DNA of 64,000 nt, taken from IMG/VR virus record IMGVR_UViG_3300009537_000005; one strand, written 5' to 3'. This DNA is from a virus. Positions 3,910-62,783 of this stretch are shown piece by piece (position 1 is the stretch's first letter; each line of letters begins with the position of its first letter). Both the position numbers and the translations under genes were made by a program. A model generated the notes under the pieces. It was given only the letters and a program-made list of their open reading frames with translations, was not told the DNA's origin and made no database searches.

Positions 3910-4353
3910 TTGGAAGGACCAAGTCAGGCCACATGTATATGGTCTGTTAGCCGCCGTCGGGTGGCAACAAATGGCTCTATGGGCGCTGTTCAACTGGAAG
4001 TGGGAGTGGGGATTTGCCATTCTGTTCGGATTGTCTTGGTTGACAATCTTATTACCGATATATATGTACTGCTACGTAATCTGGCGTACATGGGAGGAGG
4101 TATGAATGAACTAGAACTGCAAACGTACCGATCACAATTCGATAAACATACGCTTCAGATGATGGTAGTGATGTACTTGTATGAATTGTACGACATGATG
4201 TTCGTGGTAGATAGACGAATCGCAAGACTAACACCAAATGGGCGGGAATTGGCTGAGGTTCTGTTAAAAGAGCCCGAATACAGGGATTTTGCTATTGAAA
4301 GGGTCGATTCTGTACGAAAAAACAGTTCAAAGTGGCAAGACTACGTAAATTAG
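3910..4353 (+). CDS. hypothetical protein (alternative overlapping ORF 3890..4105 encodes a TM peptide)
   Basis: ORF track; last ORF before the tRNA-array promoter. Confidence 0.3.
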   Translation: MEGPSQATCIWSVSRRRVATNGSMGAVQLEVGVGICHSVRIVLVDNLITDIYVLLRNLAYMGGGMNELELQTYRSQFDKHTLQMMVVMYLYELYDMMFVVDRRIARLTPNGRELAEVLLKEPEYRDFAIERVDSVRKNSSKWQDYVN

Positions 4354-4365
4354 CAAGTTTGGGGC

Positions 4366-4406
4366 TTGACAAATTTACATTTTGATCCCAAAATATATGT
4401 GCAGGG
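4366..4406 (+). promoter_or_regulatory. sigma70-like promoter of family TTGACAAA-N17-CAAAATATA; drives the tRNA/Y RNA array
   Basis: cTTGACAaatttacattttgaTCCCAAAATATAtg; the same 40-nt architecture recurs at 11665, 38232(-), 51676(-) and 58940(-). Confidence 0.6.
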
Positions 4407-4478
4407 GCTAAAACCCCGGTTTGCCCGATAAAAAATTGCCCGGCTACCTAAATGGATGAACGCAGGGCGGGGCAACTC

Positions 4479-4550
4479 GCAGGGCTGATCTAACTGGAAT
4501 GAGCATTGTCTCCAAAACAATGAATCCTCGTTCGAATCGAGGGCCCTGTG
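4479..4550 (+). tRNA. tRNA-Trp (anticodon CCA)
   Basis: Acceptor GCAGGGC/GCCCTGT, anticodon arm ATTGT-CTCCAAA-ACAAT, T-arm CCTCG-TTCGAAT-CGAGG; weak D-stem. Confidence 0.6.
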
Positions 4551-4555
4551 CTTAT

Positions 4556-4626
4556 AGGCGTGTCGTCTAATGGCAAGACGCGAAGCTGTTAACTTCGTTA
4601 TCTAGGTTCGAGTCCTAGCGTGCCTG
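4556..4626 (+). tRNA. tRNA-Asn (GTT)
   Basis: Acceptor AGGCGTG/CGTGCCT, anticodon arm CGAAG-CTGTTAA-CTTCG, T-arm CTAGG-TTCGAGT-CCTAG. Confidence 0.7.
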
Positions 4627-4632
4627 CCTAAT

Positions 4633-4755
4633 GTGAGCCGAAGGGTCGTGGGTTATCATATCAGAAACGTAAAAGTCGCCTCTCGGGGTGAACATACGAA
4701 GGCAGGAGCCGTGATGCCCGGCCATCTCCCATCCCATTCCTTGCTCGCATAACTT
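4633..4755 (+). ncRNA. Y RNA-like ncRNA A (Ro60-binding-type helix; 3' end abuts tRNA-Ala)
   Basis: 5' box GAGCCGAAGGGTCGTGGGTTATCAT pairs with 3' box CCTTGCTC to give GAGC-[C bulge]-GA / UU-GCUC; a pyrimidine tract CCATCTCCCATCCCATTCC precedes the 3' strand; compare human Y RNA 5' GGUCCGAAGGUAGUGAGUUAUC. Confidence 0.65.
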
Positions 4756-4827
4756 GGGGAATTCATATTAACGGGAGTATGCCTCGTTTGCACCGAGGTC
4801 GTGTGGGTTCGAGTCCCTCATTCTCCA
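4756..4827 (+). tRNA. tRNA-Ala (TGC)
   Basis: Acceptor GGGGAAT/ATTCTCC, anticodon arm CCTCG-TTTGCAC-CGAGG, T-loop TTCGAGT; atypical D-arm. Confidence 0.55.
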
Positions 4828-4947
4828 CCTAGCCCGAGTGACGACGGTCACGAGCATATGCCGGGCAAGGTATTCGTCTCTAGCCGCAAATCGAGACGCC
4901 GCTGCGGAAACTGACCTGCCCCGTAGACGCGGTTTGTTAAGGTCCAC

Positions 4948-5019
4948 GCCCCTCTGGTGAAATGGATATCACTCGTGGCTTCGAACCACGCGTTGCGCGT
5001 TCAAGTCGTGCGGGGGGTG
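4948..5019 (+). tRNA. tRNA-Arg (TCG)
   Basis: Acceptor GCCCCTC/GGGGGGT (G-U pairs), D GTGA-loop-TCAC, anticodon arm CGTGG-CTTCGAA-CCACG, T-loop TTCAAGT. Confidence 0.65.
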
Positions 5020-5087
5020 CCTAATCGGGTCGGGGACATAGCGTTACCTGGCTAAAGTCCGCTGTGTCACAAACTTATCCGAAACAT

Positions 5088-5159
5088 GCCGATATAGCTC
5101 AGATGTAGAGCAGTCGCCTTGTAAGCGACAGTGCGTGGACTCGAGAACCACTATCGGCC
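5088..5159 (+). tRNA. tRNA-Thr (TGT) with a non-canonical T-loop
   Basis: Acceptor GCCGATA/TATCGGC, D GCTC-AGATGTA-GAGC, anticodon arm GTCGC-CTTGTAA-GCGAC; T-loop reads CTCGAGA instead of TTCRAAT. Confidence 0.55.
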
Positions 5160-5162
5160 CCA

Positions 5163-5234
5163 GCGGGCTTGGTGTTAGCAGTAGCACGACGGCCTTCCAA
5201 GCCGCAAGGACGAGTGCGAATCTCGTAGCCCGCT
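5163..5234 (+). tRNA. tRNA-Gly (TCC)
   Basis: Perfect acceptor GCGGGCT/AGCCCGC, anticodon loop CTTCCAA, T-arm ACGAG-TGCGAAT-CTCGT. Confidence 0.7.
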
Positions 5235-5363
5235 CTTAAGCAGAATTAGTTTATCTTAGTAAAACGGAGCCTTGCCAAGGCTCAGTGCGGGGAGCATGGC
5301 CCCGATTCTGCTCCTAAGATACTGTCTGAACAGGAGGTTCGAACCCTCCCAGCAGTATCTCAG

Positions 5364-5434
5364 TGCCTCTTAGTCTAGCGGCAGGACTGCGGTCTTTGGA
5401 ACCGTAAGGCGTGGTTCGAATCCACGAGAGGCAT
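5364..5434 (+). tRNA. tRNA-Gln (TTG)
   Basis: U1-A72 acceptor TGCCTCT/AGAGGCA (bacterial Gln-like), anticodon arm GCGGT-CTTTGGA-ACCGT, T-arm CGTGG-TTCGAAT-CCACG. Confidence 0.75.
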
Positions 5435-5437
5435 CCT

Positions 5438-5566
5438 ATGGTTTGGAACAGTCCTTTTGGTACGATTTATATCTCGCCCGACGTATATTTCGTTCTACTC
5501 GTCGTATGGTTATCTTTGCTTGTATATGGTGGAATGTACATCATGGGAGTGTTCGAAGATAAATAA
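5438..5566 (+). CDS. hypothetical 42-aa hydrophobic peptide (MVWNSPFGTIYISPDVYFVLLVVWLSLLVYGGMYIMGVFEDK) between tRNAs
   Basis: Uninterrupted ATG..TAA frame filling the gap between the two tRNA-Gln genes; predicted single TM helix; below the ORF-track size cutoff. Confidence 0.25.
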   Translation: MVWNSPFGTIYISPDVYFVLLVVWLSLLVYGGMYIMGVFEDK

Positions 5567-5639
5567 TCAGGGACGGTGTAATAGGTTGCACGTCCGGCTC
5601 TGAACCGGAAGATTGCAGGTTCGATCCCTGCTCCCTGAT
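5567..5639 (+). tRNA. tRNA-Gln (CTG)
   Basis: U1-A72 acceptor TCAGGGA/TCCCTGA, anticodon arm TCCGG-CTCTGAA-CCGGA, T-arm GCAGG-TTCGATC-CCTGC. Confidence 0.75.
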
Positions 5640-5718
5640 CCTAGAGACACACAACGGACAAGGCTAGAGGCCGCCGAAGGCGGGTGGGTAGCGAGTGGTT
5701 GACCAGTGTCTCTAACAA

Positions 5719-5791
5719 GCCGCTGTAAGATAAAGGACAGTCGCCAATGCTTCTAACATTGGGAGTGGTGGTTCGAATCCATCCAGCGGTG
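5719..5791 (+). tRNA. tRNA-Arg (TCT)
   Basis: Acceptor GCCGCTG/CAGCGGT, anticodon arm CAATG-CTTCTAA-CATTG, T-arm GGTGG-TTCGAAT-CCATC. Confidence 0.65.
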
Positions 5792-5793
5792 CC

Positions 5794-6025
5794 TATATCG
5801 GGGATTGGGAAAGTCTAGCTAATCCGCTCGCCTTGGACGCGAGAGATCGCTGGGGCAGAGCCAGCATCCCCGACCTAGCCCCCACCGGTACCAGTGAGGG
5901 GTGAGCCTAGTTTCGAGGCCAACTATTCTGTGGCTCAACACAATGTTGGTCCCTGCCTTGAGCAAGTAGGCTAGGCAAATGAAACCCGCCCGGCTGTAGC
6001 GTATGCGAAATTCGCCGGGCAATAC
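5794..6025 (+). ncRNA. unassigned structured spacer in the tRNA array (candidate ncRNA)
   Basis: 232 nt with no tRNA fold; nested inverted repeats (GGGGAT..ATCCCC; GCCCGGC-19nt-GCCGGGC); the overlapping minus-strand ORF 5819..6037 has no support. Confidence 0.25.
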
Positions 6026-6107
6026 GGAAGCGCCCAAAGGAGCGGTACGCGGTCTTGAAAACCGTGAGATGTGAAAGCATGTGGGAGTTCGAGTCTCTCC
6101 GCTTCCG
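6026..6107 (+). tRNA. tRNA-Ser (TGA), class II
   Basis: Acceptor GGAAGCG/CGCTTCC, anticodon arm GCGGT-CTTGAAA-ACCGT, long variable arm (about 18 nt), T-arm GGGAG-TTCGAGT-CTCTC. Confidence 0.75.
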
Positions 6108-6256
6108 CCTAAAGGGTCTATCTGCCCCGGCCCCTAGCTATGGGCACATAGCATAAGAGGTCGCATTCTAGAGGGGCTTGGATTGATCCTAGCCCGCTTC
6201 AAGAGATTGCACCATGTCAGAAAGGACAGAGAGCAAACCATTGGCGGGCTAAACGT

Positions 6257-6328
6257 GGGGATTGTAGTTTATGGAGTAAAACCCTGTCTGTGGAACAGGC
6301 GTAAAGGGTGCGAATCCCTTCAATCCTC
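6257..6328 (+). tRNA. tRNA-His (GTG) with encoded G-1
   Basis: Extra 5' G pairs with C73; acceptor GGGATTG/CAATCCT, anticodon arm CCTGT-CTGTGGA-ACAGG, T-arm AAGGG-TGCGAAT-CCCTT. Confidence 0.75.
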
Positions 6329-6334
6329 CCTCAT

Positions 6335-6406
6335 GTGCTTGTAGCTGAGACAGTCTAGCACTCGGTTGAAGCCCGAGAGACACTGGTGCAATTCCAGTCG
6401 AGCACA
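6335..6406 (+). tRNA. tRNA-Phe (GAA)
   Basis: Acceptor GTGCTTG/CGAGCAC, anticodon arm CTCGG-TTGAAGC-CCGAG, T-arm ACTGG-TGCAATT-CCAGT. Confidence 0.75.
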
Positions 6407-6411
6407 CCTAA

Positions 6412-6484
6412 GTCTCTGATGCGAATGGCAAGCGGACCACCTGCAAAGTGGTTACTAACGTGGGTTCGAATCCCACCAGAGACT
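6412..6484 (+). tRNA. tRNA-Cys (GCA)
   Basis: Acceptor GTCTCTG/CAGAGAC, anticodon arm ACCAC-CTGCAAA-GTGGT, T-arm GTGGG-TTCGAAT-CCCAC; 7-nt variable loop. Confidence 0.65.
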
Positions 6485-6505
6485 CCTTAAAACAAACGAA
6501 GAATT

Positions 6506-6577
6506 GGGTTTGTGGCGAAGTGGCATCGCACCAGCCTCTTAAGCTGTGAGTCGGTAGTTCGAATCTACCCAAGCCCA
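6506..6577 (+). tRNA. tRNA-Lys (CTT)
   Basis: Acceptor GGGTTTG/CAAGCCC, D GCGA-AGTGGCAT-CGC, anticodon loop CTCTTAA, T-arm GGTAG-TTCGAAT-CTACC. Confidence 0.7.
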
Positions 6578-6582
6578 CCTAT

Positions 6583-6663
6583 GCAGTTGTGGTGGAACGG
6601 CATACACGCTGGCCTCAAACCCCAGTGGGGAAACCCGTGCAGGTTCGACTCCTGTCAACTGCA
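6583..6663 (+). tRNA. tRNA-Leu (CAA), class II
   Basis: Acceptor GCAGTTG/CAACTGC, D GTGG-AACGGCAT-ACAC, anticodon loop CTCAAAC, 13-nt variable arm, T-arm GCAGG-TTCGACT-CCTGT. Confidence 0.65.
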
Positions 6664-6667
6664 CTAT

Positions 6668-6741
6668 GCAAGCGTGAAGGGAATGGCATACCTCGGTCAT
6701 TTAAAATGACTGGCTTGGTGGTTCGAGTCCACCCGCTTGTA
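6668..6741 (+). tRNA. tRNA with anticodon TAA (Leu codons UUR) but a short class-I variable loop
   Basis: Acceptor GCAAGCG/CGCTTGT, anticodon arm GGTCA-TTTAAAA-TGACT, 5-nt variable loop, T-arm GGTGG-TTCGAGT-CCACC. Confidence 0.55.
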
Positions 6742-6746
6742 CCTAT

Positions 6747-6821
6747 GCCCTCGTAGGAGAATTGGCATATCCGCACGGTTTAGGCCCGTGGTCAATAGTG
6801 GTTCGAATCCACTCGGGGGTA
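6747..6821 (+). tRNA. tRNA with anticodon TAG (Leu codons CUN) but a short class-I variable loop
   Basis: Acceptor GCCCTCG/CGGGGGT, anticodon arm CACGG-TTTAGGC-CCGTG, 6-nt variable loop, T-arm AGTGG-TTCGAAT-CCACT. Confidence 0.55.
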
Positions 6822-6890
6822 CCTTGTGTAAAGTAGTTTAGATTTTTCTTAACTCAAATCCATTTGAGTATAGTTTTCTTTACTCAACGC

Positions 6891-6965
6891 GCGCCGGTAG
6901 CTCCAATCGGTTAGAGCAGGAGTCTTTTAAACTCAAGGCTGGGGGTTCGAATCCCTCGCGGCGCA
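6891..6965 (+). tRNA. tRNA-Lys (TTT)
   Basis: D GCTC-loop-GAGC, anticodon loop CTTTTAA, T-arm GGGGG-TTCGAAT-CCCTC, acceptor GCGCCGG/GCGGCGC (7-66 mismatch). Confidence 0.65.
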
Positions 6966-6970
6966 CTCCT

Positions 6971-7044
6971 GCCATCATAGTCTAGTGGAAGGACGCAAGC
7001 CTTTCAAGCTTGAGGGCGGGGGTCAGTACCCCGTGATGGTACCA
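6971..7044 (+). tRNA. tRNA-Glu (TTC), CCA encoded
   Basis: Glu-like D-arm GTCTAGTGGAAGGAC, anticodon arm CAAGC-CTTTCAA-GCTTG, T-loop GTCAGTA (non-canonical), 3' TGATGGT-A-CCA. Confidence 0.65.
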
Positions 7045-7045
7045 T

Positions 7046-7117
7046 GCTCTTGTAGTCTAGTGGACAGGACGCTACCCTCTCAAGGTAGAAGCCGGGGTTC
7101 AACTCCCCGTGAGAGCA
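7046..7117 (+). tRNA. tRNA-Glu (CTC)
   Basis: GTCTAGTGGACAGGAC D-arm, anticodon arm TACCC-TCTCAAG? read as CTCTCAA loop (CTC), T-arm CGGGG-TTCAACT-CCCCG, acceptor GCTCTTG/TGAGAGC. Confidence 0.6.
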
Positions 7118-7359
7118 CCTAGGCACGGACCAACGCGGCGAAAGCCGAGGAAGCTCGGGACTACATAGGGCAACTCAGTACAGCCACAGAGACGAGTAAA
7201 GTGAAACGGGCCACGGCTGAGAGTTAGCAATCCCAAGTCGTGCGACAGTGACCCGCTGAGAAGCACAGGTAGGGAGCAGTCACTCGTAAAGAGGGACCGT
7301 CACTTAGTGGCGAGACAGATGTTGGTCGATAACAGAATCCCGGCTATAGTGCCTAACAC
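7118..7359 (+). ncRNA. unassigned 242-nt purine-rich structured spacer (candidate ncRNA)
   Basis: No tRNA fold and no ORF; GAAA-containing motifs (GCGGCGAAAGCCGAGG, GAGTAAAGTGAAACGGGCC); flanked by tRNA-Glu and tRNA-Ser. Confidence 0.2.
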
Positions 7360-7443
7360 GGATGGTTGGCAGAGAGGCTAATTGCACTCGGTTGCTAACC
7401 GAGCGGGGTAACACCCACATAGGTTCGAATCCTATACCATCCG
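7360..7443 (+). tRNA. tRNA-Ser (GCT), class II
   Basis: Perfect acceptor GGATGGT/ACCATCC, anticodon arm ACTCGG-TTGCTAA-CCGAG, long variable arm, T-arm ATAGG-TTCGAAT-CCTAT. Confidence 0.75.
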
Positions 7444-7463
7444 CCTGCGTTATCAAAAAGGCT

Positions 7464-7496
7464 AAAATTTCAAAATAACTTCTCTTTTTGGAGATA
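7464..7496 (+). promoter_or_regulatory. conserved upstream element (copy 2)
   Basis: AAAATTTCAAAATAACTTCTCTTTTTGGAGATA. Confidence 0.4.
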
Positions 7497-7498
7497 TA

Positions 7499-7726
7499 AT
7501 GTATGAAGTAAATATGTTTTATCCGGGCAAAGTCAGAAGTAATCTAGAAAAAGAATTTGACGATAAGATATACGGCCGTTGGGCATCCGGCTATAGCTTT
7601 GAAGATAATATCAGAGACATAGCGTTTAGCATTGAAACTCTAGACCTGGTACGAGATTTGATGGCCTACTTACCCTGTGACGGCTGGATTACGGTACGAC
7701 TGAGAGACGGAGTGGTAGAAGCATAA
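7499..7726 (+). CDS. hypothetical small protein embedded in the tRNA array
   Basis: ORF track; preceded by the conserved AAAATTTCAAAATA...CTTTTTGGAGA element plus SD. Confidence 0.35.
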   Translation: MYEVNMFYPGKVRSNLEKEFDDKIYGRWASGYSFEDNIRDIAFSIETLDLVRDLMAYLPCDGWITVRLRDGVVEA

Positions 7727-7736
7727 ATTACTACCC

Positions 7737-7770
7737 TAAAATTTCAAAATAGTCTCGCTTTTTCGGAGAG
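7737..7770 (+). promoter_or_regulatory. conserved upstream element (copy 3)
   Basis: AAAATTTCAAAATAGTCTCGCTTTTTCGGAGAG. Confidence 0.4.
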
Positions 7771-7776
7771 ATTTCC

Positions 7777-7980
7777 ATGCACAAGCAGAATAATCGTTGG
7801 ACTTGGAAAGAGTTTGGTAAGCGGATCAGCCCACACGCTGGATGGTTTAGTAGATGGAGACGTGGTGACGGGAGACTATGGAAAAAGAAGTTAAGTAAGG
7901 CGCGGAGACGAGCGTGGAAAGACCCACACCAACGGGGATTACTAAGTGTCGAGCGGGAATGTAATTGGAAGACATGGTAA
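7777..7980 (+). CDS. hypothetical basic (R/K/W-rich) small protein
   Basis: ORF track; preceded by a second copy of the same conserved upstream element. Confidence 0.35.
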   Translation: MHKQNNRWTWKEFGKRISPHAGWFSRWRRGDGRLWKKKLSKARRRAWKDPHQRGLLSVERECNWKTW

Positions 7981-8195
7981 TGCGTGGATTAGCATACAGA
8001 CGATATCAAATGGATCGTATCAAGAAGAAACGGGCCCACTACTGGGGTGGACACGCTGGTAGTGATCCAAGACTGTTGGGAATAGTTGCTAAAACACCAC
8101 ACCCTTGTAGTGGCTGGTGTTGTGGCAATCCACGGAAGCATTTTGGCGAGAAGACTCGTCAAGAAATAACATGGACGGCTGGCGATCTCGGTTGA
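7965..8195 (+). CDS. hypothetical small protein; 3' end would overlap tRNA-Ile
   Basis: ORF track; overlaps the 5' part of the tRNA called at 8173, so the true extent is uncertain. Confidence 0.2.
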   Translation: MEDMVMRGLAYRRYQMDRIKKKRAHYWGGHAGSDPRLLGIVAKTPHPCSGWCCGNPRKHFGEKTRQEITWTAGDLG

Positions 8196-8247
8196 ACGCG
8201 CTACTCTGATAAGGTAGTATAGGCAGGTTCGAATCCTGCGCCGTCTA
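8173..8247 (+). tRNA. tRNA-Ile (GAT)
   Basis: Acceptor GGACGGC/GCCGTCT, anticodon arm CTACT-CTGATAA-GGTAG, T-arm GCAGG-TTCGAAT-CCTGC. Confidence 0.65.
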
Positions 8248-8252
8248 CTTCT

Positions 8253-8326
8253 GGACTGGAAGCCAATTGGATTGAGGCATCACTCTTATAAGGTGAGTAT
8301 AGCTGGTTCGACTCCAGCCCGGTCTA
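8253..8326 (+). tRNA. tRNA with anticodon TAT (would read the AUA Ile codon)
   Basis: Acceptor GGACTGG/CCGGTCT, anticodon arm TCACT-CTTATAA-GGTGA, T-arm GCTGG-TTCGACT-CCAGC. Confidence 0.55.
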
Positions 8327-8331
8327 CCTAC

Positions 8332-8405
8332 GGCTTGGTAGCTCAATTGGATAGAGCGCCACACTGTCGATGTGGTGGTTGCGGGTTCAAGTCCCGTCCG
8401 AGTCG
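8332..8405 (+). tRNA. tRNA-Asp (GTC)
   Basis: D GCTC-AATTGGAT-AGAGC, anticodon arm CCACA-CTGTCGA-TGTGG, T-arm GCGGG-TTCAAGT-CCCGT. Confidence 0.7.
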
Positions 8406-8411
8406 CCTTTA

Positions 8412-8492
8412 TAGGGCCGAAGAGTAAGTGGGTTATCATACAGTTGACGTATACCTTCGGGTACTCCCACCCTCACAACTTGCCCTATACAT
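8412..8492 (+). ncRNA. Y RNA-like ncRNA B (short form; compensatory variant of the Ro60-binding helix)
   Basis: 5' box GGGCCGAAGAGTAAGTGGGTTATCAT pairs with 3' box CTCACAACTTGCCC to give GGGC-[C]-GA / UU-GCCC. The A-to-G change on the 5' strand is matched by T-to-C on the 3' strand relative to copies A, C and D. Internal GTACC-TTCG-GGTAC tetraloop hairpin; 3' end abuts tRNA-Val. Confidence 0.65.
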
Positions 8493-8566
8493 GCAGGCTT
8501 AGCTCAGTTGGATAGAGCACTTCTTTTACACAGAAGGTGTCGGGAGTTCGAGTCTCTCAGCCTGTA
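8493..8566 (+). tRNA. tRNA-Val (TAC)
   Basis: Acceptor GCAGGCT/AGCCTGT, D GCTC-AGTTGGAT-AGAGC, anticodon arm CTTCT-TTTACAC-AGAAG, T-arm GGGAG-TTCGAGT-CTCTC. Confidence 0.75.
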
Positions 8567-8573
8567 CCTATAT

Positions 8574-8741
8574 GTGAGCCGACGGTAACAGGGTTCTCGT
8601 CCTTATCAGGAGGAATTCTGAATGCGGGTAACCTGCTATAGTGGTTAAAGTGATGACTAGATCGGGCCCTTATGCTGGTCCGACAACGAAAACATTGCGG
8701 GTCTTGGACCTTCCCCTGGCCACAACTTGCTCACACAACAT
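8574..8741 (+). ncRNA. Y RNA-like ncRNA C (long form, about 168 nt)
   Basis: 5' box GAGCCGACGGTAACAGGGTTCTCGTCCTTATC and 3' box CCTTCCCCTGGCCACAACTTGCTCACACAACAT pair as GAGC-[C]-GA / UU-GCUC; 3' end abuts tRNA-Met. Confidence 0.55.
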
Positions 8742-8815
8742 GCCGAATAGGCCAATTGGATAGGCACCCGTCTCATTAACGGGGTTGTGTGGTTCGATTC
8801 CACAATTCGGTACCA
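8742..8815 (+). tRNA. tRNA-Met or Ile2 (CAT), CCA encoded
   Basis: Acceptor GCCGAAT/ATTCGGT-A-CCA, anticodon arm CCCGT-CTCATTA-ACGGG, T-arm TGTGG-TTCGATT-CCACA; no initiator signature. Confidence 0.7.
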
Positions 8816-8886
8816 CGCGGGGTTGAGGAGCGGCTCCTCCGTAGGCTCATAACCTACTCACGTCGGTTCGAATCCGACCCCCGCTA
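8816..8886 (+). tRNA. second CAT-anticodon tRNA (Met/fMet/Ile2 undetermined); starts directly after the CCA of the previous tRNA
   Basis: D GAGG-AGCGGCT-CCTC, anticodon arm GTAGG-CTCATAA-CCTAC (initiator-like loop sequence), T-arm GTCGG-TTCGAAT-CCGAC, acceptor CGCGGGG/CCCCGCT with a 1-72 mismatch. Confidence 0.5.
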
Positions 8887-8892
8887 CTTAGT

Positions 8893-9044
8893 ACGAGCCG
8901 ACGAGTAAGTGGGTTATCTTCTATCAAAAGAGAGGTCGTGAGTTCGAATCTCACCCCGTCTACCATAGACGGGTAGCTCAGTGGCAGAGCGCTGGCGAAA
9001 GCCTTCCCACTCTCATAACTTGCTCGTACAACATAACTCACAAT
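8893..9044 (+). ncRNA. Y RNA-like ncRNA D with a permuted tRNA-like domain (YrlA-type)
   Basis: 5' box GAGCCGACGAGTAAGTGGGTTATCTT; internal T-arm GTGAG-TTCGAAT-CTCAC; then CCCGTCT-ACCAT-AGACGGG (acceptor stem closed as a hairpin over a CCA-containing loop); then TA-GCTC-AGTGGCA-GAGC D-arm; then 3' box CCTTCCCACTCTCATAACTTGCTCGTACAACAT; followed by tRNA-Tyr. Confidence 0.7.
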
Positions 9045-9125
9045 GGCGGTGCGCCCGTGTGGGAACGGGGTCGGTCTGTAGAACCGATGGCATGCGCATA
9101 GGAAGTTCGATTCTTCACGCCGCCA
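9045..9125 (+). tRNA. tRNA-Tyr (GTA), class II
   Basis: Acceptor GGCGGTG/CGCCGCC, D CCCG-TGTGGGAA-CGGG, anticodon arm TCGGT-CTGTAGA-ACCGA, 12-nt variable arm, T-loop TTCGATT. Confidence 0.7.
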
Positions 9126-9182
9126 CCTAGACCAATTCGGGTCTATTATCCGAGTGGTTTTCTCCTCGGAAAGGAGGATTCA

Positions 9183-10826
9183 GTGACTTACACAAGGCAC
9201 TATAACGTACGAAAGACGCCACAGAACCAACCAATTCCGGGTAAGAACATGGTCGCCAACAGCGCTGGCGGTTTTGCGTTCGCCGTTGACGACTGGGCAC
9301 GTCTAAGACGTTTCTTAATTCTTGGCGCAGAAGGTGGTACATACTACATTGGCGAGAAGGAGCTAACAATCGGGAATGCCGAGGCTGTACTGCGTTGCAT
9401 CAAGGAAGATGGTATTGGTGTTGTTGACACGATTGTTGATGTCAGTAAGGGTGGTAGAGCACCAAAGAACGACCCTGCTCTATTTGCTTTAGCTATGTGT
9501 GCCGGATTAGGAAACGAAAACACGAAGCGCCATGCTCTTAACGCACTGCCAGAAGTAGCACGAATTGGTACTCACCTATTCACTTTCGCAGAGTACGTAC
9601 AAGCGTTTCGTGGCTGGGGACGGTCACTGCGCCGAGCCGTTGGTGAGTGGTACACAACCAAGGAACCAAAGCAACTAGCATACCAGCTAGTGAAGTATCA
9701 ACAGCGGAACGGTTGGTCACACCGTGACTTACTGCGACTATCTCACCCTAAGTCAGATGAGCACAACGTTCTGTTCAATTGGGTGACACAAGGACCGGGC
9801 GAAGGTACACACTTTGATTTGCCGGTAAATGAAGCCACTAGGTTAATTTACGCTTTCGAGAGGGCCAAGACAGCGGACGAAGCAGAGACTATTGAGTTGA
9901 TTATAGACTACGGTCTAACTCGTGAAATGATCCAGACAAAGCACCTAAACAGTGCGGATGTTTGGTTCGCTTTGCTACAGAACATGCCTATGACAGCTAT
10001 GATCCGGAACCTAGGCAAGATGACTCAGGTTGGGCTACTAGGTGACGGCCGATGGGACTCTAACAAGATTGTGCAGGACCGACTGCGAGACTCAGTGCGG
10101 TTGGCCAAGGCAAGAATTCACCCGCTGAATGTTTTAGTAGCTCTGAGAACCTACGATAGCGGTGGCGGATACCGAGGTAAGTTAGTCTGGAATCCGTCGC
10201 GAGACATTGTGAGCGCACTGAATGACGCTTTCTACCTGGCGTTCGATGGAGTATACCCAACAGGCAGGCGGTTTGTGTTGGGCGTGGACGTGAGCAGTAG
10301 CATGAGTGCTACGATAGGCAACACAGTGTTGTCTGCGGCAGAAGCCGCTGTGGCAATGGCGATGGTAATTCGACGAACGGAAGACCAAGCTATAATCCGA
10401 GGATTCGCTGGTGGCGAACGCCGGTATAGCGATCCCTTACAAGGTCCGAACTACGATGGTTTCATGGACTTAGGCATCAGTAGAGAGACACGACTAGAGT
10501 CAGCAATGGAACGGACACGAAACAAGAACTTCGGTCGGACAGACTGTGCTCTGCCTATGTTGTGGGCACTAAAGAACGAGGTCGAAGCTGACGTATTTTG
10601 TATTTTCACTGACTCAGAAACATGGGTAGGAAAAATTCACCCAGTACAGGCGCTACAACAGTACCGAGAAAAGATGAACATCCCGGCTAAGTTGATTGTT
10701 GTGGCGATGACAAGTAATGGCTTCAGCATCGCTGACCCAAACGATGGGGGCATGCTAGACGTGGTGGGATTTGATACATCAATTCCGCAAGTGATGGCGG
10801 ACTTCATTGGGATATCAGGCCCCTAA
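9183..10826 (+). CDS. rsr: Ro60/Rsr orthologue (TROVE domain plus C-terminal vWA domain with a MIDAS motif)
   Basis: N-terminal WARLRRFLILGAEGGTYYIGEKELTIGNAEAVLRCIKEDG...PALFALAMCAG matches Ro60 (human ...[39 protein letters not shown]...PMLFALA); C-terminal VLGVDVSSSMSA is a DxSxS MIDAS motif; GTG start after GGAAAGGAGG. Confidence 0.9.
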   Translation: MTYTRHYNVRKTPQNQPIPGKNMVANSAGGFAFAVDDWARLRRFLILGAEGGTYYIGEKELTIGNAEAVLRCIKEDGIGVVDTIVDVSKGGRAPKNDPALFALAMCAGLGNENTKRHALNALPEVARIGTHLFTFAEYVQAFRGWGRSLRRAVGEWYTTKEPKQLAYQLVKYQQRNGWSHRDLLRLSHPKSDEHNVLFNWVTQGPGEGTHFDLPVNEATRLIYAFERAKTADEAETIELIIDYGLTREMIQTKHLNSADVWFALLQNMPMTAMIRNLGKMTQVGLLGDGRWDSNKIVQDRLRDSVRLAKARIHPLNVLVALRTYDSGGGYRGKLVWNPSRDIVSALNDAFYLAFDGVYPTGRRFVLGVDVSSSMSATIGNTVLSAAEAAVAMAMVIRRTEDQAIIRGFAGGERRYSDPLQGPNYDGFMDLGISRETRLESAMERTRNKNFGRTDCALPMLWALKNEVEADVFCIFTDSETWVGKIHPVQALQQYREKMNIPAKLIVVAMTSNGFSIADPNDGGMLDVVGFDTSIPQVMADFIGISGP

Positions 10827-10834
10827 ACAGTGAT

Positions 10835-10865
10835 CCCGGCACCCAGCCGGGGTCATTCTCTTTTG
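10835..10865 (+). terminator. candidate intrinsic terminator after rsr
   Basis: CCCGGC-ACCCA-GCCGGG hairpin followed by GTCATTCTCTTTTG. Confidence 0.35.
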
Positions 10866-10878
10866 AAAGGAGAGAACA

Positions 10879-11076
10879 ATGTCCAAGACAACCGTGTGTA
10901 TTAAAGCGACTATCTATATTGATGTAGATGTTCCTCACTCTATTGTGGAGGTTGCGACAACGCTTGGTGAATTTCCTGTAGATCAGAAGCTACGAGAAGT
11001 ACTAAAAGATTCACTGGTTCTAATTGTGGATTGGGAAGACGCAGAGGTCGTGGCCCTCTTGTCACAGGACGAATAG
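10879..11076 (+). CDS. hypothetical small protein
   Basis: ORF track; SD GAAAGGAGAGAA upstream. Confidence 0.3.
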   Translation: MSKTTVCIKATIYIDVDVPHSIVEVATTLGEFPVDQKLREVLKDSLVLIVDWEDAEVVALLSQDE

Positions 11077-11097
11077 AAAAATCCAAAGGAGTTAGTT

Positions 11098-11613
11098 ATG
11101 AGAACCGTCAGAGACATGGTGAAGAACGACGAGATGTGGACGCCGCCCGAAGCGACAAACCCATTGATACAGTATCTAGATAACAGTATGACAATTTGGG
11201 AAATGTGTCCTGGTTCTGGACAGATGGTAGATTACTTTGTAACCAGAGGCTACAATGTACTGTGGCACAGTGGGAAGGACGCTTTGCATTGGTCTCCGCC
11301 AGAGTGGTGGGACGTAGCCGTGACTAACCCACCGTGGAGCAAGAAACACTTATTCCTTGAGCGATGTATTAAGTTGGATGATCCCTTCGCATTGCTCCTA
11401 CCAGTCCGAACGCTGGGCGTACGGAGGTGTCAGATATGGCTCGATGACTGTGACTTTTTGTTTTTGCCCAAGAGAATAGATTATACAGGAGGGAACAGTC
11501 CCTATGAAGCAAGCCTTTGGGTTACTAGAAAACTATTACCAAATAGAGTTGTGTTCGCACCACCGGAGTCTATGAATGCCTATGTTCCGGCGGGCGTAAA
11601 ATTCGGGCCATGA
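11098..11613 (+). CDS. DNA N6-adenine methyltransferase (phage Dam-like)
   Basis: Motif I-like CPGSG and catalytic NPPW tetrapeptide; MWTPPE N-terminus typical of phage Dam-family MTases. Confidence 0.6.
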   Translation: MRTVRDMVKNDEMWTPPEATNPLIQYLDNSMTIWEMCPGSGQMVDYFVTRGYNVLWHSGKDALHWSPPEWWDVAVTNPPWSKKHLFLERCIKLDDPFALLLPVRTLGVRRCQIWLDDCDFLFLPKRIDYTGGNSPYEASLWVTRKLLPNRVVFAPPESMNAYVPAGVKFGP

Positions 11614-56130: not shown

Positions 56131-56904
56131 TTACCATGCGCAGTAACCTCCGTCGATCAAAACCTGCTGGCCAGCAAACTCTGGACACTCTATTGCGAAT
56201 CTGAGGGCGGCTCGCCAACTTTGTTCGCTAATTGCTCTACCCAACGGAACGTTTTTAAAAAACTTTTCTTTGAATTCATCGGGAAGTCCCTTATCCAGCG
56301 GTCCGAAAGCAATGGTAACGGACCGAATATTGTGGCTTCCGTACTGTACGGTAATTGACCTTGATAATTGAATAAGTGCCGCTTTCGAGAGGTTGTAGGC
56401 AACTGGTTTTTCAAATCCCTCGTCATAGTTCCTCCAATCGGCACCAATGTTACCCATGATGCTACCAATGTTGATTATTACTCCTCCTCCGATGGCCTTC
56501 ATCCCCGGAATAAATGCCTTTGCGACATTAGCCGACCCGACAAGGTTCACATTGAGTATTTTTTCCATGTCTCCGAAAAAAGTGGCTCCAGAGCCGGGTG
56601 GATTGTCAATCGCCGCGTTGTTAACCACAACAGATGGTATTATGCCCTCTTCAAACAAATCGGCGGCATAGGCTCGCAACAAATCGGGGTTTGTTACATC
56701 ATATAGAGGCAAATCATAGCTAAAGACCTCATAACCCATCCGTGTTAGTTCGTCTATCCAGATTGGCCCCACCCGTCCGCTTCCGCCCGTTACTACTGCG
56801 TACTTCACGTACGTCGGTGGGGATGCCAATGAGGCCAAGCTTCTTTCCCAGTCAAAGTTAAAGTATTCTCCTACTTTCCAGTTGACCATTGTGTCTTGTT
56901 TCAT
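56131..56904 (-). CDS. short-chain dehydrogenase/reductase (SDR)
   Basis: TGGSGRVG Rossmann motif, NNAA, catalytic YNLSK (YxxxK). Confidence 0.7.
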   Translation of the reverse strand: MKQDTMVNWKVGEYFNFDWERSLASLASPPTYVKYAVVTGGSGRVGPIWIDELTRMGYEVFSYDLPLYDVTNPDLLRAYAADLFEEGIIPSVVVNNAAIDNPPGSGATFFGDMEKILNVNLVGSANVAKAFIPGMKAIGGGVIINIGSIMGNIGADWRNYDEGFEKPVAYNLSKAALIQLSRSITVQYGSHNIRSVTIAFGPLDKGLPDEFKEKFFKNVPLGRAISEQSWRAALRFAIECPEFAGQQVLIDGGYCAW

Positions 56905-62595: not shown

Positions 62596-62668
62596 GTCCT
62601 CTTAGTCTAGAGGTCTAGGACACCGACTTCTCAGGTCGGGAACGTAGGTTCGAATCCTACAGAGGACA
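62596..62668 (+). tRNA. tRNA-Glu (CTC), isolated copy
   Basis: GTCCTCT-TA-GTCTAGAGGTCTAGGAC D-arm closely resembles bacterial tRNA-Glu; anticodon arm CCGAC-TTCTCAG-GTCGG; T-arm GTAGG-TTCGAAT-CCTAC. Confidence 0.65.
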
Positions 62669-62783
62669 CCTAGCCGTCCCGTCGGCCAGTGGCCCTACGC
62701 TGGCAGAAGTAGGCAGAAGCTAAATACCCAGTCAACCACGGGAGAAGACTGGTTTCTTCTCACTACGTCTGAAAGGAAAGAAC

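What the first reader, a model, noticed from the sequence alone, without database searches (positions are those of the whole stretch)
4740..9050. Each Y RNA-like module ends exactly at the 5' end of a tRNA (Ala, Val, Met, Tyr): probable RNase P co-processing
The 3' box ...AACTTGCTC(N6-8)CAT runs directly into mature tRNA position +1 in all four cases: 4755/4756, 8492/8493, 8741/8742 and (with a 10-nt insert) 9044/9045. This fixed junction implies the Y RNA 3' end is generated by RNase P cleavage of the downstream tRNA. Y RNA biogenesis is thereby tied to tRNA maturation, and the stoichiometry of the two RNA classes is coupled.
Basis: inference. Interest (0 to 1): 0.6.

Follow-up and report, generated by a model that had tools for sequence, protein, structure and literature searches.

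The report
Y RNAs wedged between phage tRNAs
In this phage, small Ro60-partner RNAs (Y RNAs) exactly fill the gaps between tRNA genes just upstream of the Ro60 gene, so the enzymes that trim tRNAs probably also cut the Y RNAs free; the same layout, which I found described nowhere, recurs in other phages, including a cultured one.

Summary
The junction coordinates are correct. tRNA +1 lies at 4756 (Ala), 8493 (Val), 8742 (Met) and 9045 (Tyr), directly after four Y RNA-like modules upstream of a Ro60 gene (9183-10826).

- Its "N6-8" is the 3' strand of each module's closing helix.
- The helices end 3-15 nt before tRNA +1.
- "CAT" is the leader consensus of the whole tRNA array, not part of the Y RNA.
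- Each module also starts 2-4 nt after an upstream tRNA.
- A fifth mini-module (5025-5082) precedes tRNA-Thr.

The gaps leave 5-18 nt beyond the helices, too little for a promoter or terminator. Co-transcription, with release by RNase P on the 3' side and by tRNA 3'-end processing on the 5' side, is therefore the best inference. It is untested, and further 3' trimming is likely.

The design recurs in seven other loci, including cultured Gordonia phage Sixama. Most phage Y RNA arrays have no tRNAs, so the link is optional. The claim of coupled stoichiometry is weak.

The array also holds a 240-nt reduced RNase P RNA-like gene (7120-7359).

Verdict: a new variant of a known kind, of moderate interest.

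The parts
4366..4394 (+). Candidate sigma-70-type promoter of the tRNA/ncRNA array (TTGACA-17-CAAAAT)
   Evidence: 10 of 12 consensus matches. It is the only good plus-strand site in 4000-11200, lying 85 nt upstream of the first tRNA (4479). A consensus match only.
4556..4628 (+). tRNA-Asn(GUU), upstream neighbour of Y module A
   Evidence: It ends in N73-CC, and 2 nt (TA) separate it from the Y-A helix.
4631..4750 (+). Y RNA-like module A (closing helix AUGUGAGC/GCUCGCAU, motif GCCGAAGG at 4637-4644); 5-nt tail AACUU at 4751-4755
   Evidence: The GNCGAAN0-1G motif of Chen et al. 2014 (PMC4201824) matches exactly. No tRNA-like domain.
4756..4829 (+). tRNA-Ala(UGC) with a G3:U70 pair; its +1 defines the first junction
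   Evidence: 45.5 bits. The G3:U70 pair was read from the sequence.
5025..5082 (+). Fifth, minimal Y-like module E (helix UCGGGU/AUCCGA, CGG variant of the motif, 3' ACAAACUU); tail AACAU at 5083-5087; lies between tRNA-Arg(UCG) 4948-5021 and tRNA-Thr(UGU) 5088-5159
   Evidence: The downstream tRNA was found by Rfam only (53.1 bits). This is the weakest of the five assignments.
7120..7359 (+). Reduced bacterial type-A RNase P RNA-like gene that exactly fills the gap between tRNA-Glu(CUC) and tRNA-Ser(GCU)
   Evidence: RF00010, 49.4 bits, E 1e-14 to 2.5e-13, full model span 1-367 in 240 nt. This is below the gathering score of 100. The P4 strands, AUAGGGCA, GCCACAGA, GGUAGG and ACAGAA are retained.
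8332..8407 (+). tRNA-Asp(GUC), upstream neighbour of module B
   Evidence: 64.8 bits. A 2-nt spacer (UU) precedes the Y-B helix.
8410..8489 (+). Y RNA-like module B (helix UAUAGGGC/GCCCUAUA, GCCGAAGAG at 8416-8424); 3-nt tail CAU at 8490-8492
   Evidence: Weak sbRNA (nematode Y RNA) hit at 8408-8490. In the predicted minimum-energy structure, the Asp-B-Val transcript forms three separate domains.
8493..8568 (+). tRNA-Val(UAC)
   Evidence: 62.4 bits.
8573..8735 (+). Y RNA-like module C (helix UGUGAGC/GCUCACA, GCCGACGG at 8578-8585, large internal domain); 6-nt tail CAACAU at 8736-8741
   Evidence: One mismatch to the GNCGAA motif.
8742..8887 (+). Two abutting tRNA-Met(CAU) genes with no spacer: 8742-8815 with an encoded CCA, and 8816-8887 with a C1xU72 mismatch (initiator-like)
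   Evidence: The acceptor-stem reading is from the sequence.
8891..9029 (+). Y RNA-like module D, YrlA type (helix GUACGAGC/GCUCGUAC, GCCGACGAG at 8897-8905). Internal tRNA-like domain: T arm 8938-8954, acceptor-like hairpin 8955-8973, D arm 8976-8990. 15-nt tail at 9030-9044.
   Evidence: (RF02553, 43.4 bits, full model).
9045..9127 (+). tRNA-Tyr(GUA), last gene of the array
   Evidence: Rfam scores it best as a long-variable-arm tRNA.
9183..10826 (+). Ro60/Rsr orthologue (TROVE plus Ro60 vWA domains), with a Shine-Dalgarno sequence AAGGAGG at 9171
   Evidence: (PF05731 at 1.8e-49; PF25045 at 3.6e-64).
10829..10857 (+). Strong intrinsic-terminator-like hairpin that closes the array-rsr unit
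   Evidence: 12-bp stem followed by a T-rich tail.

Best explanation
The region 4479-10826 is a tRNA-punctuated operon of non-coding RNAs in a phage of an undescribed lineage. It holds about 30 tRNAs, five Y RNA-like genes, a reduced RNase P RNA-like gene and several unknown structured RNAs, and it ends in the Ro60 (rsr) gene. All are on one strand.

Proposed pathway:
1. Each Y RNA is transcribed as part of a tRNA-Y-tRNA precursor. This is inferred from the geometry.
2. RNase P cuts at +1 of the downstream tRNA and leaves the Y RNA with a 3'-OH tail of 3-15 nt. This follows from the universal specificity of RNase P once co-transcription is accepted.
3. A second endonuclease cuts in the 2-4 nt, A/U-only spacer after the upstream tRNA's N73-CC and frees the Y RNA 5' end. 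RNase Z or RNase E type is my guess.
4. 3'-to-5' exonucleases may trim the tail back towards the closing helix, where Ro60 binding would protect the RNA. This step is inferred.
5. Module D has a further probable RNase P site inside its tRNA-like domain. It has a 7-bp acceptor stem followed by ACCA and then a U before +1, like Mycobacterium smegmatis YrlA.

The coupling to tRNAs is an optional architecture for Y RNAs, not a general requirement. It recurs in several phage lineages.
For: tRNA boundaries: agreed by two independent methods.

Helix-defined Y RNAs fill their gaps:
- 5' spacers are 2, 3, 2, 4 and 3 nt; 3' tails are 5, 5, 3, 6 and 15 nt.
- No plus-strand terminator-like site lies inside the array.
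- No plus-strand promoter-like site lies next to any Y module. The only one inside the array is a weak 9-of-12 match at 7580-7609, within a small ORF. The best site is upstream at 4366-4394.
- None of the window's tails is T-rich, whereas 48 of 150 Y-like candidates elsewhere end in T-rich, terminator-like tails.

Leaders: the leaders before the Y-flanked tRNAs match the array-wide consensus of A at -2, U at -1 and little G.

The same design occurs elsewhere (unless stated):
- L064: Y-Gly-Y-Pro-Y-Met-Y-Ro60.
- L114: Trp-Y-Leu.
- L119: Met-Y-Leu.
- L048 and L040: tRNA-YrlA-Ile inside an array of 22 (L048) or 25 (L040) tRNAs.
- L013 and L029: Y followed by tRNA-Met.
- Cultured Gordonia phage Sixama: Y-Arg-Y-Gln-YrlA-Ile-Y-Met-Met.
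- Tails are 3-8 nt in 16 of the 17 modules.

Identity as Y RNAs:
- The closing helices all differ in sequence yet stay complementary.
- The GNCGAA motif, the YrlA hit and the sbRNA hits are present.
- The Ro60 gene lies 56 nt after the last tRNA.

Precedents:
- M. smegmatis YrlA and YrlB come from one precursor, and YrlA is cut by RNase P (PMC4201824).
- Phage T4 RNAs C and D are transcribed from its tRNA region (PMC3014915).
- The array carries its own RNase P RNA-like gene.
Against: - There are no expression or end-mapping data of any kind.
- The host, and therefore its RNase P type and nuclease set, is unknown. There is no megablast match to any phage, and the terminase is at most 25% identical to known ones.
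- The promoter scan covers sigma-70-type sites only. AT-rich gaps at 5437-5566 and 6824-6890, and the 727-nt gap that contains small ORFs (7446-8172), could hold internal promoters. These would still lie upstream of whole tRNA-Y blocks.
- In module B the closing helix ends only 3 nt from the cleavage site, which may be a poor context for the RNase P protein subunit.
- Most Y-like modules in related loci have no adjacent tRNA, as do the cultured phages ET08, Phosso and Cashline. Other routes to Y RNA 3' ends clearly exist and could also operate here.
- Minimum-energy folding of the long precursors gave clean three-domain structures only for B and E (largely for A), not for C or D.
Confidence: 0.65

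Rival explanations
1. The RNAs are co-transcribed, but RNase P does not release the Y RNAs. Another endonuclease (RNase E/G, RNase III, or RNase Y/J, depending on the host) cuts the short single-stranded tails first, or exonucleases set the mature 3' end at the base of the helix. RNase P would then mature only the tRNA, and the junction would simply reflect tight packing.
For: Every long gap in the array, whatever it holds, ends at a tRNA, so abutment alone says nothing specific about Y RNAs. The 5' side of each Y RNA needs a non-RNase P cut anyway, and its spacers contain only A and U. Tandem Y arrays without tRNAs (L003, L006, L093, L116) show that such processing exists.
Against: The tails are A/C-rich and only 3-6 nt long in four of the five modules, leaving little target for another endonuclease. 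RNase P must cut at +1 in any case. Tail lengths stay within a narrow 3-8 nt range across independent lineages, which suggests selection on the leader geometry.
Confidence: 0.17
2. The Y-like modules act in cis rather than as free Y RNAs. They would be structured leaders or trailers that recruit Ro60 (and with it exonucleases such as PNPase) to phage tRNA precursors for quality control, or that pace tRNA processing. Stable Y-tRNA chimeras or processing intermediates would then be the functional species.
For: Ro60 is known to bind misfolded non-coding RNAs, and Y RNAs tether it to PNPase (PMC4201824). The modules touch tRNAs on both sides. Module D's 10-nt tail insert AACUCAC is complementary to its own T-arm 5' strand GUGAGUU (read), which hints at a precursor-specific alternative pairing.
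Against: There is no direct evidence. The same Y RNA architecture works without tRNAs in most loci. RNase P normally cleaves efficiently, so chimeras should be short-lived.
Confidence: 0.08
3. The modules are not functional Y RNAs. They would be decayed tRNA or Y RNA pseudogenes, or spacer hairpins of the array.
For: No module reaches an Rfam gathering score. C and D deviate from GNCGAA by one base, and E has CGG.
Against: Five modules keep a complementary closing helix although the helix sequences differ. The motif sits at a fixed place in each. The Ro60 gene is adjacent. Equivalent modules occur in many Ro60 loci and are enriched on the Ro60 strand (150 against 46 hits). D aligns over the full YrlA model.
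Confidence: 0.05
4. Y RNAs and tRNAs are independent transcription units, each with its own promoter or terminator at the junction.
For: Phage-specific promoters are not covered by the scan.
Against: Only 3-15 nt separate each Y helix from tRNA +1, and only 2-4 nt separate each upstream tRNA from the Y helix. That is too short for any known promoter or intrinsic terminator. The tails are not T-rich.
Confidence: 0.03

Closest known systems
Bacterial and phage Y RNAs of the YrlA/YrlB class encoded next to Ro60/Rsr (Chen et al. 2014, PMC4201824; Rfam RF02553)
   Same: Closing helix with a GNCGAA-type Ro60-binding motif. Same strand as Ro60 and close to it. Several Y RNAs per locus. One member (module D) has T arm, acceptor-like hairpin and D arm. 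M. smegmatis YrlA and YrlB are processed from a single precursor.
   Different: In the described cases the Y RNAs lie side by side upstream of rsr with no tRNA genes between them. Here each is sandwiched between genuine tRNA genes inside an array of about 30 tRNAs. All modules score below the Rfam threshold.
RNase P cleavage of Mycobacterium smegmatis YrlA (Chen et al. 2014)
   Same: RNase P acts on a Y RNA. Module D likewise has a 7-bp acceptor-like stem, the feature the authors call decisive, and here it is followed by an encoded ACCA.
   Different: In M. smegmatis the cut is inside the Y RNA's tRNA-like domain and splits it into two halves.
Small stable RNAs C and D of the bacteriophage T4 tRNA gene cluster (PMC3014915 for their existence; their processing with the tRNAs is from my own knowledge of the older T4 literature)
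   Same: Non-tRNA small RNAs embedded in a phage tRNA cluster and made from the same region.
   Different: The T4 RNAs have no known function or protein partner. Here the embedded RNAs belong to a recognisable family, and the partner protein is encoded next door.
tRNA punctuation and RNase P-made 3' ends: mitochondrial polycistronic transcripts, and MALAT1/mascRNA (own knowledge, not tested here)
   Same: Cleavage at the 5' end of a tRNA or tRNA-like structure creates the 3' end of the upstream RNA. tRNAs serve as processing signals on both sides.
   Different: Those are eukaryotic or organellar systems. Here the context is a bacteriophage operon, and the released RNAs are Y RNAs.
Thermus phage phiLo Ro60 with Yrl1 and Yrl2 (PMC12135203)
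   Same: A phage-encoded Ro60 with two or more Y-like RNAs upstream carrying the CGAA motif.
   Different: No tRNA flanking is reported for phiLo (the paper mentions tRNA only twice).

Membership tests
Bacterial Y RNA, YrlA/YrlB class (Chen et al. 2014; Rfam RF02553) | Helix formed by the 5' and 3' ends, with the GNCGAAN0-1G motif in the 5' strand | tested here: met
   A has GCCGAAGG and B has GCCGAAGAG, both exact. C has GCCGACGG and D has GCCGACGAG, one mismatch each. E has the CGG variant. Closing helices are 6-8 bp in all five.
Bacterial Y RNA, YrlA/YrlB class (Chen et al. 2014; Rfam RF02553) | Encoded on the same strand as a Ro60 orthologue and within about 4 kb of it | tested here: met
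   Ro60 is at 9183-10826. B, C and D lie 154-773 nt upstream. E and A lie 4.1 and 4.4 kb upstream, just beyond the 4-kb criterion but in the same array and on the same strand.
Bacterial Y RNA, YrlA/YrlB class (Chen et al. 2014; Rfam RF02553) | tRNA-like domain (T arm, acceptor-like stem-loop, D arm) in at least one Y RNA of the locus | tested here: met
   Module D has a T arm at 8938-8954, an acceptor-like hairpin at 8955-8973 and a D arm at 8976-8990, aligned over the full YrlA model. A, B, C and E lack the domain, like YrlB.
Bacterial Y RNA, YrlA/YrlB class (Chen et al. 2014; Rfam RF02553) | Score at or above the Rfam gathering threshold (69 bits) | tested here: not met
   Best hit is 43.4 bits for D (E 2e-7). 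The other modules are not detected by RF02553. Relatives score similarly: Sixama 46.8 bits, L048 35.9 bits.
Bacterial Y RNA, YrlA/YrlB class (Chen et al. 2014; Rfam RF02553) | Binding to the Ro60/Rsr protein | not testable with these tools
   Needs a gel-shift assay or immunoprecipitation.
tRNA-punctuated polycistronic precursor released by RNase P | The non-tRNA RNA abuts the 5' end of a genuine tRNA on the same strand | tested here: met
   Tails of 3-15 nt before tRNA +1 in five of five window modules, and 3-8 nt in twelve modules from seven other loci.
tRNA-punctuated polycistronic precursor released by RNase P | No independent promoter or terminator between the units (co-transcription) | tested here: inconclusive
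   The geometry leaves no room, and the scan finds no plus-strand terminator in the array and no plus-strand promoter site next to any Y module. Transcription itself was not observed, and non-sigma-70 promoters are not covered by the scan.
tRNA-punctuated polycistronic precursor released by RNase P | RNase P-dependent formation of the upstream RNA's 3' end | not testable with these tools
   Needs end mapping with and without RNase P activity.
Bacterial RNase P RNA, type A (Rfam RF00010), for the element at 7120-7359 | Conserved catalytic-core sequences and the P4 helix | tested here: met
   The alignment spans model positions 1-367. GAGGAA..UC.GG and ACAGAAUCCCGGCUA can form P4 with a bulged U (my reading). 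AUAGGGCA, GCCACAGA and GGUAGG are retained.
Bacterial RNase P RNA, type A (Rfam RF00010), for the element at 7120-7359 | Score at or above the gathering threshold (100 bits) and a full set of helices | tested here: not met
   49.4 bits. Large deletions (model segments of 30, 81 and 23 nt are replaced by 0, 13 and 32 nt) and a shortened P3. By contrast, L144 carries a 295-nt copy scoring 156 bits inside a 43-tRNA viral array.

The most novel reading that the evidence does not exclude
The phage carries a self-contained small-RNA maturation and surveillance module. It would comprise a tRNA array that acts as punctuation, the phage's own minimal RNase P ribozyme (7120-7359), possibly matched to the CC encoded after the discriminator of most of the phage's tRNAs, and Ro60 with five Y RNAs released by that same punctuation. 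The Ro60-Y particles would then act on the array's own products, for example by checking the quality of phage tRNAs or shielding them from host anticodon nucleases or exonucleases. Y RNA and tRNA biogenesis would be linked functionally, not merely placed side by side.
Probability: 0.15. Interest if true: 0.8.

Novelty: new variant of a known kind. Interest (0 to 1): 0.5.

Why it matters
- How bacterial and phage Y RNAs acquire their ends is largely unknown. A tRNA-punctuated design makes a concrete, testable prediction: the ends depend on RNase P and on tRNA 3'-end processing. It also adds to the existing links between Y RNAs and tRNA biology (tRNA mimicry, RNase P cleavage of YrlA, CCA addition).
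- The architecture recurs in several phage lineages, including the cultured Gordonia phage Sixama, where neither the Y RNAs nor a tmRNA are annotated. The idea can therefore be tested in the laboratory, and genome annotation of phage tRNA arrays can be improved.
- The array shows that the long "spacers" in phage tRNA clusters are packed with structured RNAs, including an apparent RNase P RNA. That changes how such arrays should be read.

Tried and rejected
- **Close relatives of the phage.** Megablast of 8300-11000 against 50,697 phage records found no match. A terminase search gave only hits of at most 25% identity. Ro60 searches of viral and metagenome contigs gave at most 54% identity over the full length (up to 58% on a partial match), so no close relative was available for base-by-base conservation of the junctions.
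- **Rfam at gathering thresholds.** Only tRNAs were reported. The Y RNA and RNase P signals appear only below threshold.
- **RNase P RNA in other Y/tRNA arrays.** None was found in L006, L048, L093, L064 or L119.
- **Folding of tRNA-Y-tRNA precursors.** Minimum-energy folding gave clean domain separation for B and E and largely for A, but the flanking tRNAs misfolded for C and D (the Y-D helix itself is kept). I treat this as uninformative.
- **My Y RNA descriptor.** It is noisy (46 minus-strand hits against 150 plus-strand hits). It misses variants such as L029 and all the Sixama modules, which I found by eye. The fraction of Y RNAs with flanking tRNAs is therefore only approximate.
- **Formal covariation count on the closing helices.** Not run, because my selection of the helices would bias it.
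- **Literature.** I found no paper describing Y RNAs interleaved with tRNAs or a phage-encoded RNase P RNA. The 2020 Annual Review on bacterial Ro60 is not held, so a prior mention there cannot be excluded.
- **Rejected explanations.** Independent transcription units are ruled out by geometry. Pseudogenes or spacer hairpins are unlikely given the conserved design next to Ro60.

Full report
**1. What is in the window**

The stretch 4479-9127 (+ strand) is a dense tRNA array.
- ARAGORN finds 26 tRNAs there.
- Rfam adds three more: 5088-5159, 5163-5234 and a long-arm tRNA at 6026-6106.
- A GTG-initiated ORF starts 56 nt after the last tRNA (9183-10826). It encodes a Ro60/Rsr orthologue with TROVE and Ro60-vWA domains (Pfam E 1.8e-49 and 3.6e-64).
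- A strong terminator-like hairpin follows it at 10829-10857.

The rest of the window encodes phage proteins: DNA polymerase A, a RecA-like protein, a helicase-type ATPase and a terminase. There is no nucleotide match to any deposited phage, and the terminase is at most 25% identical to known ones. This is a phage of an undescribed lineage, and its host is unknown.

**2. Checking the observation**

The four junction coordinates are correct. tRNA +1 lies at 4756 (Ala), 8493 (Val), 8742 (Met) and 9045 (Tyr) by two independent methods.

The sequences upstream really are Y RNA-like.
- Each begins with a strand that ends in GCCGAAG or GCCGACG. This is the GNCGAAN0-1G Ro60-binding motif of Chen et al. 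2014 (PMC4201824).
- In A, B and D that strand is followed by GUGGGUUAUC (C has GGGUUCUC).
- Each ends with (A/C)CUUGC(U/C)C.
- The first and last bases pair into a 7-8 bp closing helix.
- Module D aligns over the whole Rfam YrlA model (43.4 bits, E 2e-7, below the gathering score of 69). It has a T arm, an acceptor-like hairpin and a D arm.
- B and D also give weak hits to the nematode Y RNA (sbRNA) model, aligned through the closing stem.

Five corrections are needed.
1. The consensus AACTTGCTC(N6-8)CAT holds literally only for C, and for D with its insert. A and B deviate.
2. The "N6-8" is the 3' strand of the closing helix. The structurally defined Y RNAs end at 4750, 8489, 8735 and 9029, followed by single-stranded tails of 5, 3, 6 and 15 nt.
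3. The terminal "CAT" is the leader consensus of the whole array. Among 29 tRNA leaders, -2 is A in 20, -1 is T in 15, and G is nearly absent from -5 to -1. AACAT-like leaders also precede tRNAs that follow non-Y gaps.
4. Each module also begins only 2-4 nt after an upstream tRNA (Asn, Asp, Val, initiator-like Met). The Y RNAs are sandwiched between tRNAs, not merely followed by them.
5. A fifth, minimal module (5025-5082; UCGGGU-CGG...ACAAACUU-AUCCGA, tail AACAU) lies between tRNA-Arg and tRNA-Thr.

The informative fact is that helix-defined Y RNAs fill their inter-tRNA gaps to within 5-18 nt.

**3. The array as a whole**

Gaps between tRNAs are either 0-4 nt (one is 19 nt) or long, from 49 to 727 nt. 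Most long gaps fold into a structure. They comprise:
- the five Y modules;
- a 240-nt element that matches the full bacterial type-A RNase P RNA model (7120-7359; 49.4 bits, E about 1e-14, below the gathering score of 100). It keeps the P4 strands and other core motifs, has large peripheral deletions, and exactly fills the gap between tRNA-Glu and tRNA-Ser;
- a minihelix made of an acceptor stem and a T arm (5315-5363);
- a probable tRNA-Pro(UGG) that both tRNA finders missed (about 5798-5873);
- several unknown structured RNAs;
- two AT-rich gaps (5437-5566 and 6824-6890);
- one gap with three small ORFs (7446-8172).

Abutting a tRNA is therefore a property of every element in this array, not a special feature of a Y RNA 3' box.

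**4. Co-transcription**

- The only good sigma-70-like plus-strand site in 4000-11200 is TTGACA-17-CAAAAT at 4366-4394, upstream of the first tRNA.
- No plus-strand terminator-like site lies inside the array.
- A weak terminator-like site follows tRNA-Tyr, and a strong one follows rsr.
- The 2-4 nt and 3-15 nt that flank each Y helix cannot hold a promoter or an intrinsic terminator.
- None of the window's tails is T-rich.

Internal promoters elsewhere in the array remain possible, for example in the AT-rich gaps or the ORF-containing gap.

**5. Comparative evidence**

I collected 110 loci that encode Ro60 relatives of 35-58% identity, from viral and metagenome contigs. A motif search added 19 more viral loci. 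I also looked at four cultured phages.

A simple descriptor (closing helix anchored at GNCG(A/G), with (A/C/T)TT before the 3' strand) gives 150 non-redundant hits on the Ro60 strand against 46 on the opposite strand. Most of the excess lies in tandem sets just upstream of Ro60, for example five in L003, five in L093 and five in L116.
- Only 8 candidates have a same-strand tRNA within 25 nt downstream, and 10 have one within 25 nt upstream.
- 48 end in T-rich tails. L013's second Y RNA, for example, ends in a stem followed by UUUUUU.
- ET08, the mycobacteriophage used by Chen et al., and also Phosso and Cashline, have no tRNA near their Ro gene.

Y RNA biogenesis is therefore not generally tied to tRNAs.

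The sandwich design nevertheless recurs in independent lineages (unless stated):
- L064: a promoter-like site, then Y, tRNA-Gly, Y, tRNA-Pro, Y, tRNA-Met, a YrlA-like Y, then Ro60.
- L114: Trp-Y-Leu.
- L119: Met-Y-Leu.
- L048 and L040: tRNA-YrlA-tRNA-Ile inside an array of 22 (L048) or 25 (L040) tRNAs; L048 also carries a tmRNA.
- L013 and L029: Y followed by tRNA-Met.
- Cultured Gordonia phage Sixama (MN484601): downstream of Ro come tRNA-Asn, an unannotated tmRNA, then Y-tRNA-Arg-Y-tRNA-Gln-YrlA (46.8 bits)-tRNA-Ile-Y-tRNA-Met-tRNA-Met.

Across 17 such modules in 8 loci, the tail between helix and tRNA +1 is 3-8 nt in 16 cases and 15 nt in window D. Twelve modules also have a tRNA 0-4 nt upstream. 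The closing helices all differ in sequence but remain complementary.

The identity of the downstream tRNA varies (Ala, Thr, Val, Met, Tyr, Arg, Gln, Ile, Gly, Pro, Leu). What is conserved is the geometry, not one particular gene pair. Y followed by Met is the most frequent pairing.

**6. Most likely mechanism**

- *Shown by sequence:* the Y RNAs are sandwiched between genuine tRNAs, on one strand, with no room for transcription signals.
- *Follows from the established specificity of RNase P:* if the units are co-transcribed, cleavage at +1 of each downstream tRNA releases the upstream Y RNA with a 3'-OH tail of 3-15 nt.
- *Inferred:* a second endonuclease must cut the 2-4 nt, A/U-only spacer after the upstream tRNA's N73-CC. 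Otherwise exonucleolytic maturation of that tRNA's 3' end would have to consume the Y RNA. RNase Z or RNase E type is my guess, and it depends on the host.
- *Inferred:* the tail may then be trimmed, with Ro60 binding protecting the closing helix.
- *Additional link to RNase P:* module D reads CCCGUCU-A-CCA-U-AGACGGG (8955-8973). That is a 7-bp acceptor stem, a discriminator, an encoded CCA and a U at -1. Chen et al. identified the 7-bp stem as the reason M. smegmatis YrlA is cut by RNase P and then receives CCA. An internal cut of D is therefore plausible.
- *Speculative:* most tRNAs in the array (about 20 of 29) encode N73-CC followed by T, and two encode full CCA. The RNase P-like RNA retains a GGU in the region that aligns to L15, which could pair with that CC.

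Co-transcription equalises synthesis, not steady-state levels.

**7. Comparison with known systems**

Already known:
- Y RNAs next to Ro60 in bacteria and phages, more than one per locus, polycistronic precursors, tRNA mimicry, and RNase P cleavage inside one YrlA (PMC4201824).
- Phage Ro60 with two upstream Y-like RNAs in Thermus phage phiLo (PMC12135203).
- Small non-tRNA RNAs in the phage T4 tRNA region (PMC3014915).
- RNase P making the 3' end of an upstream RNA, which is textbook for mitochondrial tRNA punctuation and for MALAT1/mascRNA (my own knowledge).

What I could not find described is the interleaving of Y RNAs with genuine tRNAs, so that tRNA processing sets both Y RNA ends. The key 2020 review is not held, so a prior mention there cannot be excluded.

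I classify this as a new variant of a known kind. The window is its most extreme example: all five modules are sandwiched, and an RNase P RNA-like gene sits in the same array.

**8. Verdict**

- Observation: partly confirmed. The coordinates are exact, but the motif description and its meaning needed correcting.
- Interpretation: partly supported. Co-transcription and RNase P release are the best inference, at about 0.65 confidence.
- Interest: 0.5. The mechanism is unsurprising, but the architecture is recurrent, apparently unreported, and directly testable in a cultured phage.

The phage-borne RNase P RNA genes lie outside the finding I was given but may deserve their own follow-up. One is in the window. 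A second, scoring 156 bits, lies in the 43-tRNA viral array L144.

Noticed in passing
window 7120-7359 (+): A 240-nt reduced bacterial type-A RNase P RNA-like gene exactly fills the gap between tRNA-Glu(CUC) and tRNA-Ser(GCU). It scores 49.4 bits on RF00010 (E about 1e-14, below the gathering score of 100), and the core motifs and the P4 pairing are retained. My literature searches found no report of a phage-encoded RNase P RNA.
   Followed up: partly
L144 7338-7632 (-), contig IMGVR_UViG_3300031576_000015 (94 kb): A 295-nt RNase P RNA that passes the Rfam threshold (RF00010, 156 bits) lies inside a 43-tRNA array on a viral contig. It ends 9 nt upstream of the 5' end of tRNA-Arg(CCU). This is a second case of an RNase P RNA gene within a viral tRNA array.
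   Followed up: partly
window 8955-8973 (+), inside Y module D: The acceptor-like hairpin reads CCCGUCU-A-CCA-U-AGACGGG: a 7-bp stem, a discriminator A, an encoded CCA and a U at -1. It looks like an internal RNase P substrate of the kind shown experimentally for M. smegmatis YrlA. Cleavage would split D into two halves, the 5' half ending in CCA(U).
   Followed up: partly
window 9035-9041 versus 8938-8944 (+): The 10-nt 'insert' in module D's tail contains AACUCAC, which is perfectly complementary to GUGAGUU (the 5' strand of D's own T arm plus two loop bases). It could be a precursor-only alternative pairing, a remnant of a T-arm duplication, or chance (roughly 3% by my estimate).
   Followed up: no
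window 4479-9127 (+), tRNA 3' ends: About 20 of the 29 tRNAs encode N73-CC followed by T (usually TA or TT), not CCA. Only tRNA-Glu(UUC) 6971-7044 and tRNA-Met 8742-8815 encode a full CCA. This suggests A76 is added after transcription, and perhaps that the CC is kept for recognition by RNase P.
   Followed up: partly
window 4830-4947, 5315-5363, 5642-5718, 5798-5873, 5876-6025, 6109-6257 (+): Other long gaps in the array hold structured RNAs of unknown identity. They include a minihelix made of an acceptor stem and a T arm (5315-5363), a hairpin containing GCCGAAGGCGGGUGGGUA (5642-5718), and a probable tRNA-Pro(UGG) with an unusual T loop that both ARAGORN and Rfam missed (5798-5873).
   Followed up: no
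window 7462-7477 and 7736-7751 (+): The exact 16-nt repeat CTAAAATTTCAAAATA occurs about 25 nt upstream of the start codons of two small ORFs (7499-7726 and 7777-7980) that interrupt the tRNA array. It may be a phage promoter or a regulatory site.
   Followed up: no
L147 (Gordonia phage Sixama MN484601) 4995-5416 and 5520-6162: The GenBank record annotates only tRNAs and CDS here. Rfam finds a tmRNA (88 bits) and a YrlA-like RNA (46.8 bits). Four Y-like modules sit between the tRNAs, and one or two more lie upstream of the Ro gene.
   Followed up: partly
L006 2894-2974 (+): A permuted tRNA-like module (T arm, acceptor hairpin, D arm) with no recognisable Ro60-binding stem fills the gap between tRNA-Phe and tRNA-His in another phage tRNA array. 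In that array the genuine Y RNAs lie in tandem after the tRNAs, behind their own promoter-like site.
   Followed up: no
window 62596-62670 (+) and 56901-58166 (-): A second tRNA-Glu(CUC) lies alone 53 kb from the array. The phage also encodes a transketolase-like protein, an unusual auxiliary metabolic gene.
   Followed up: no
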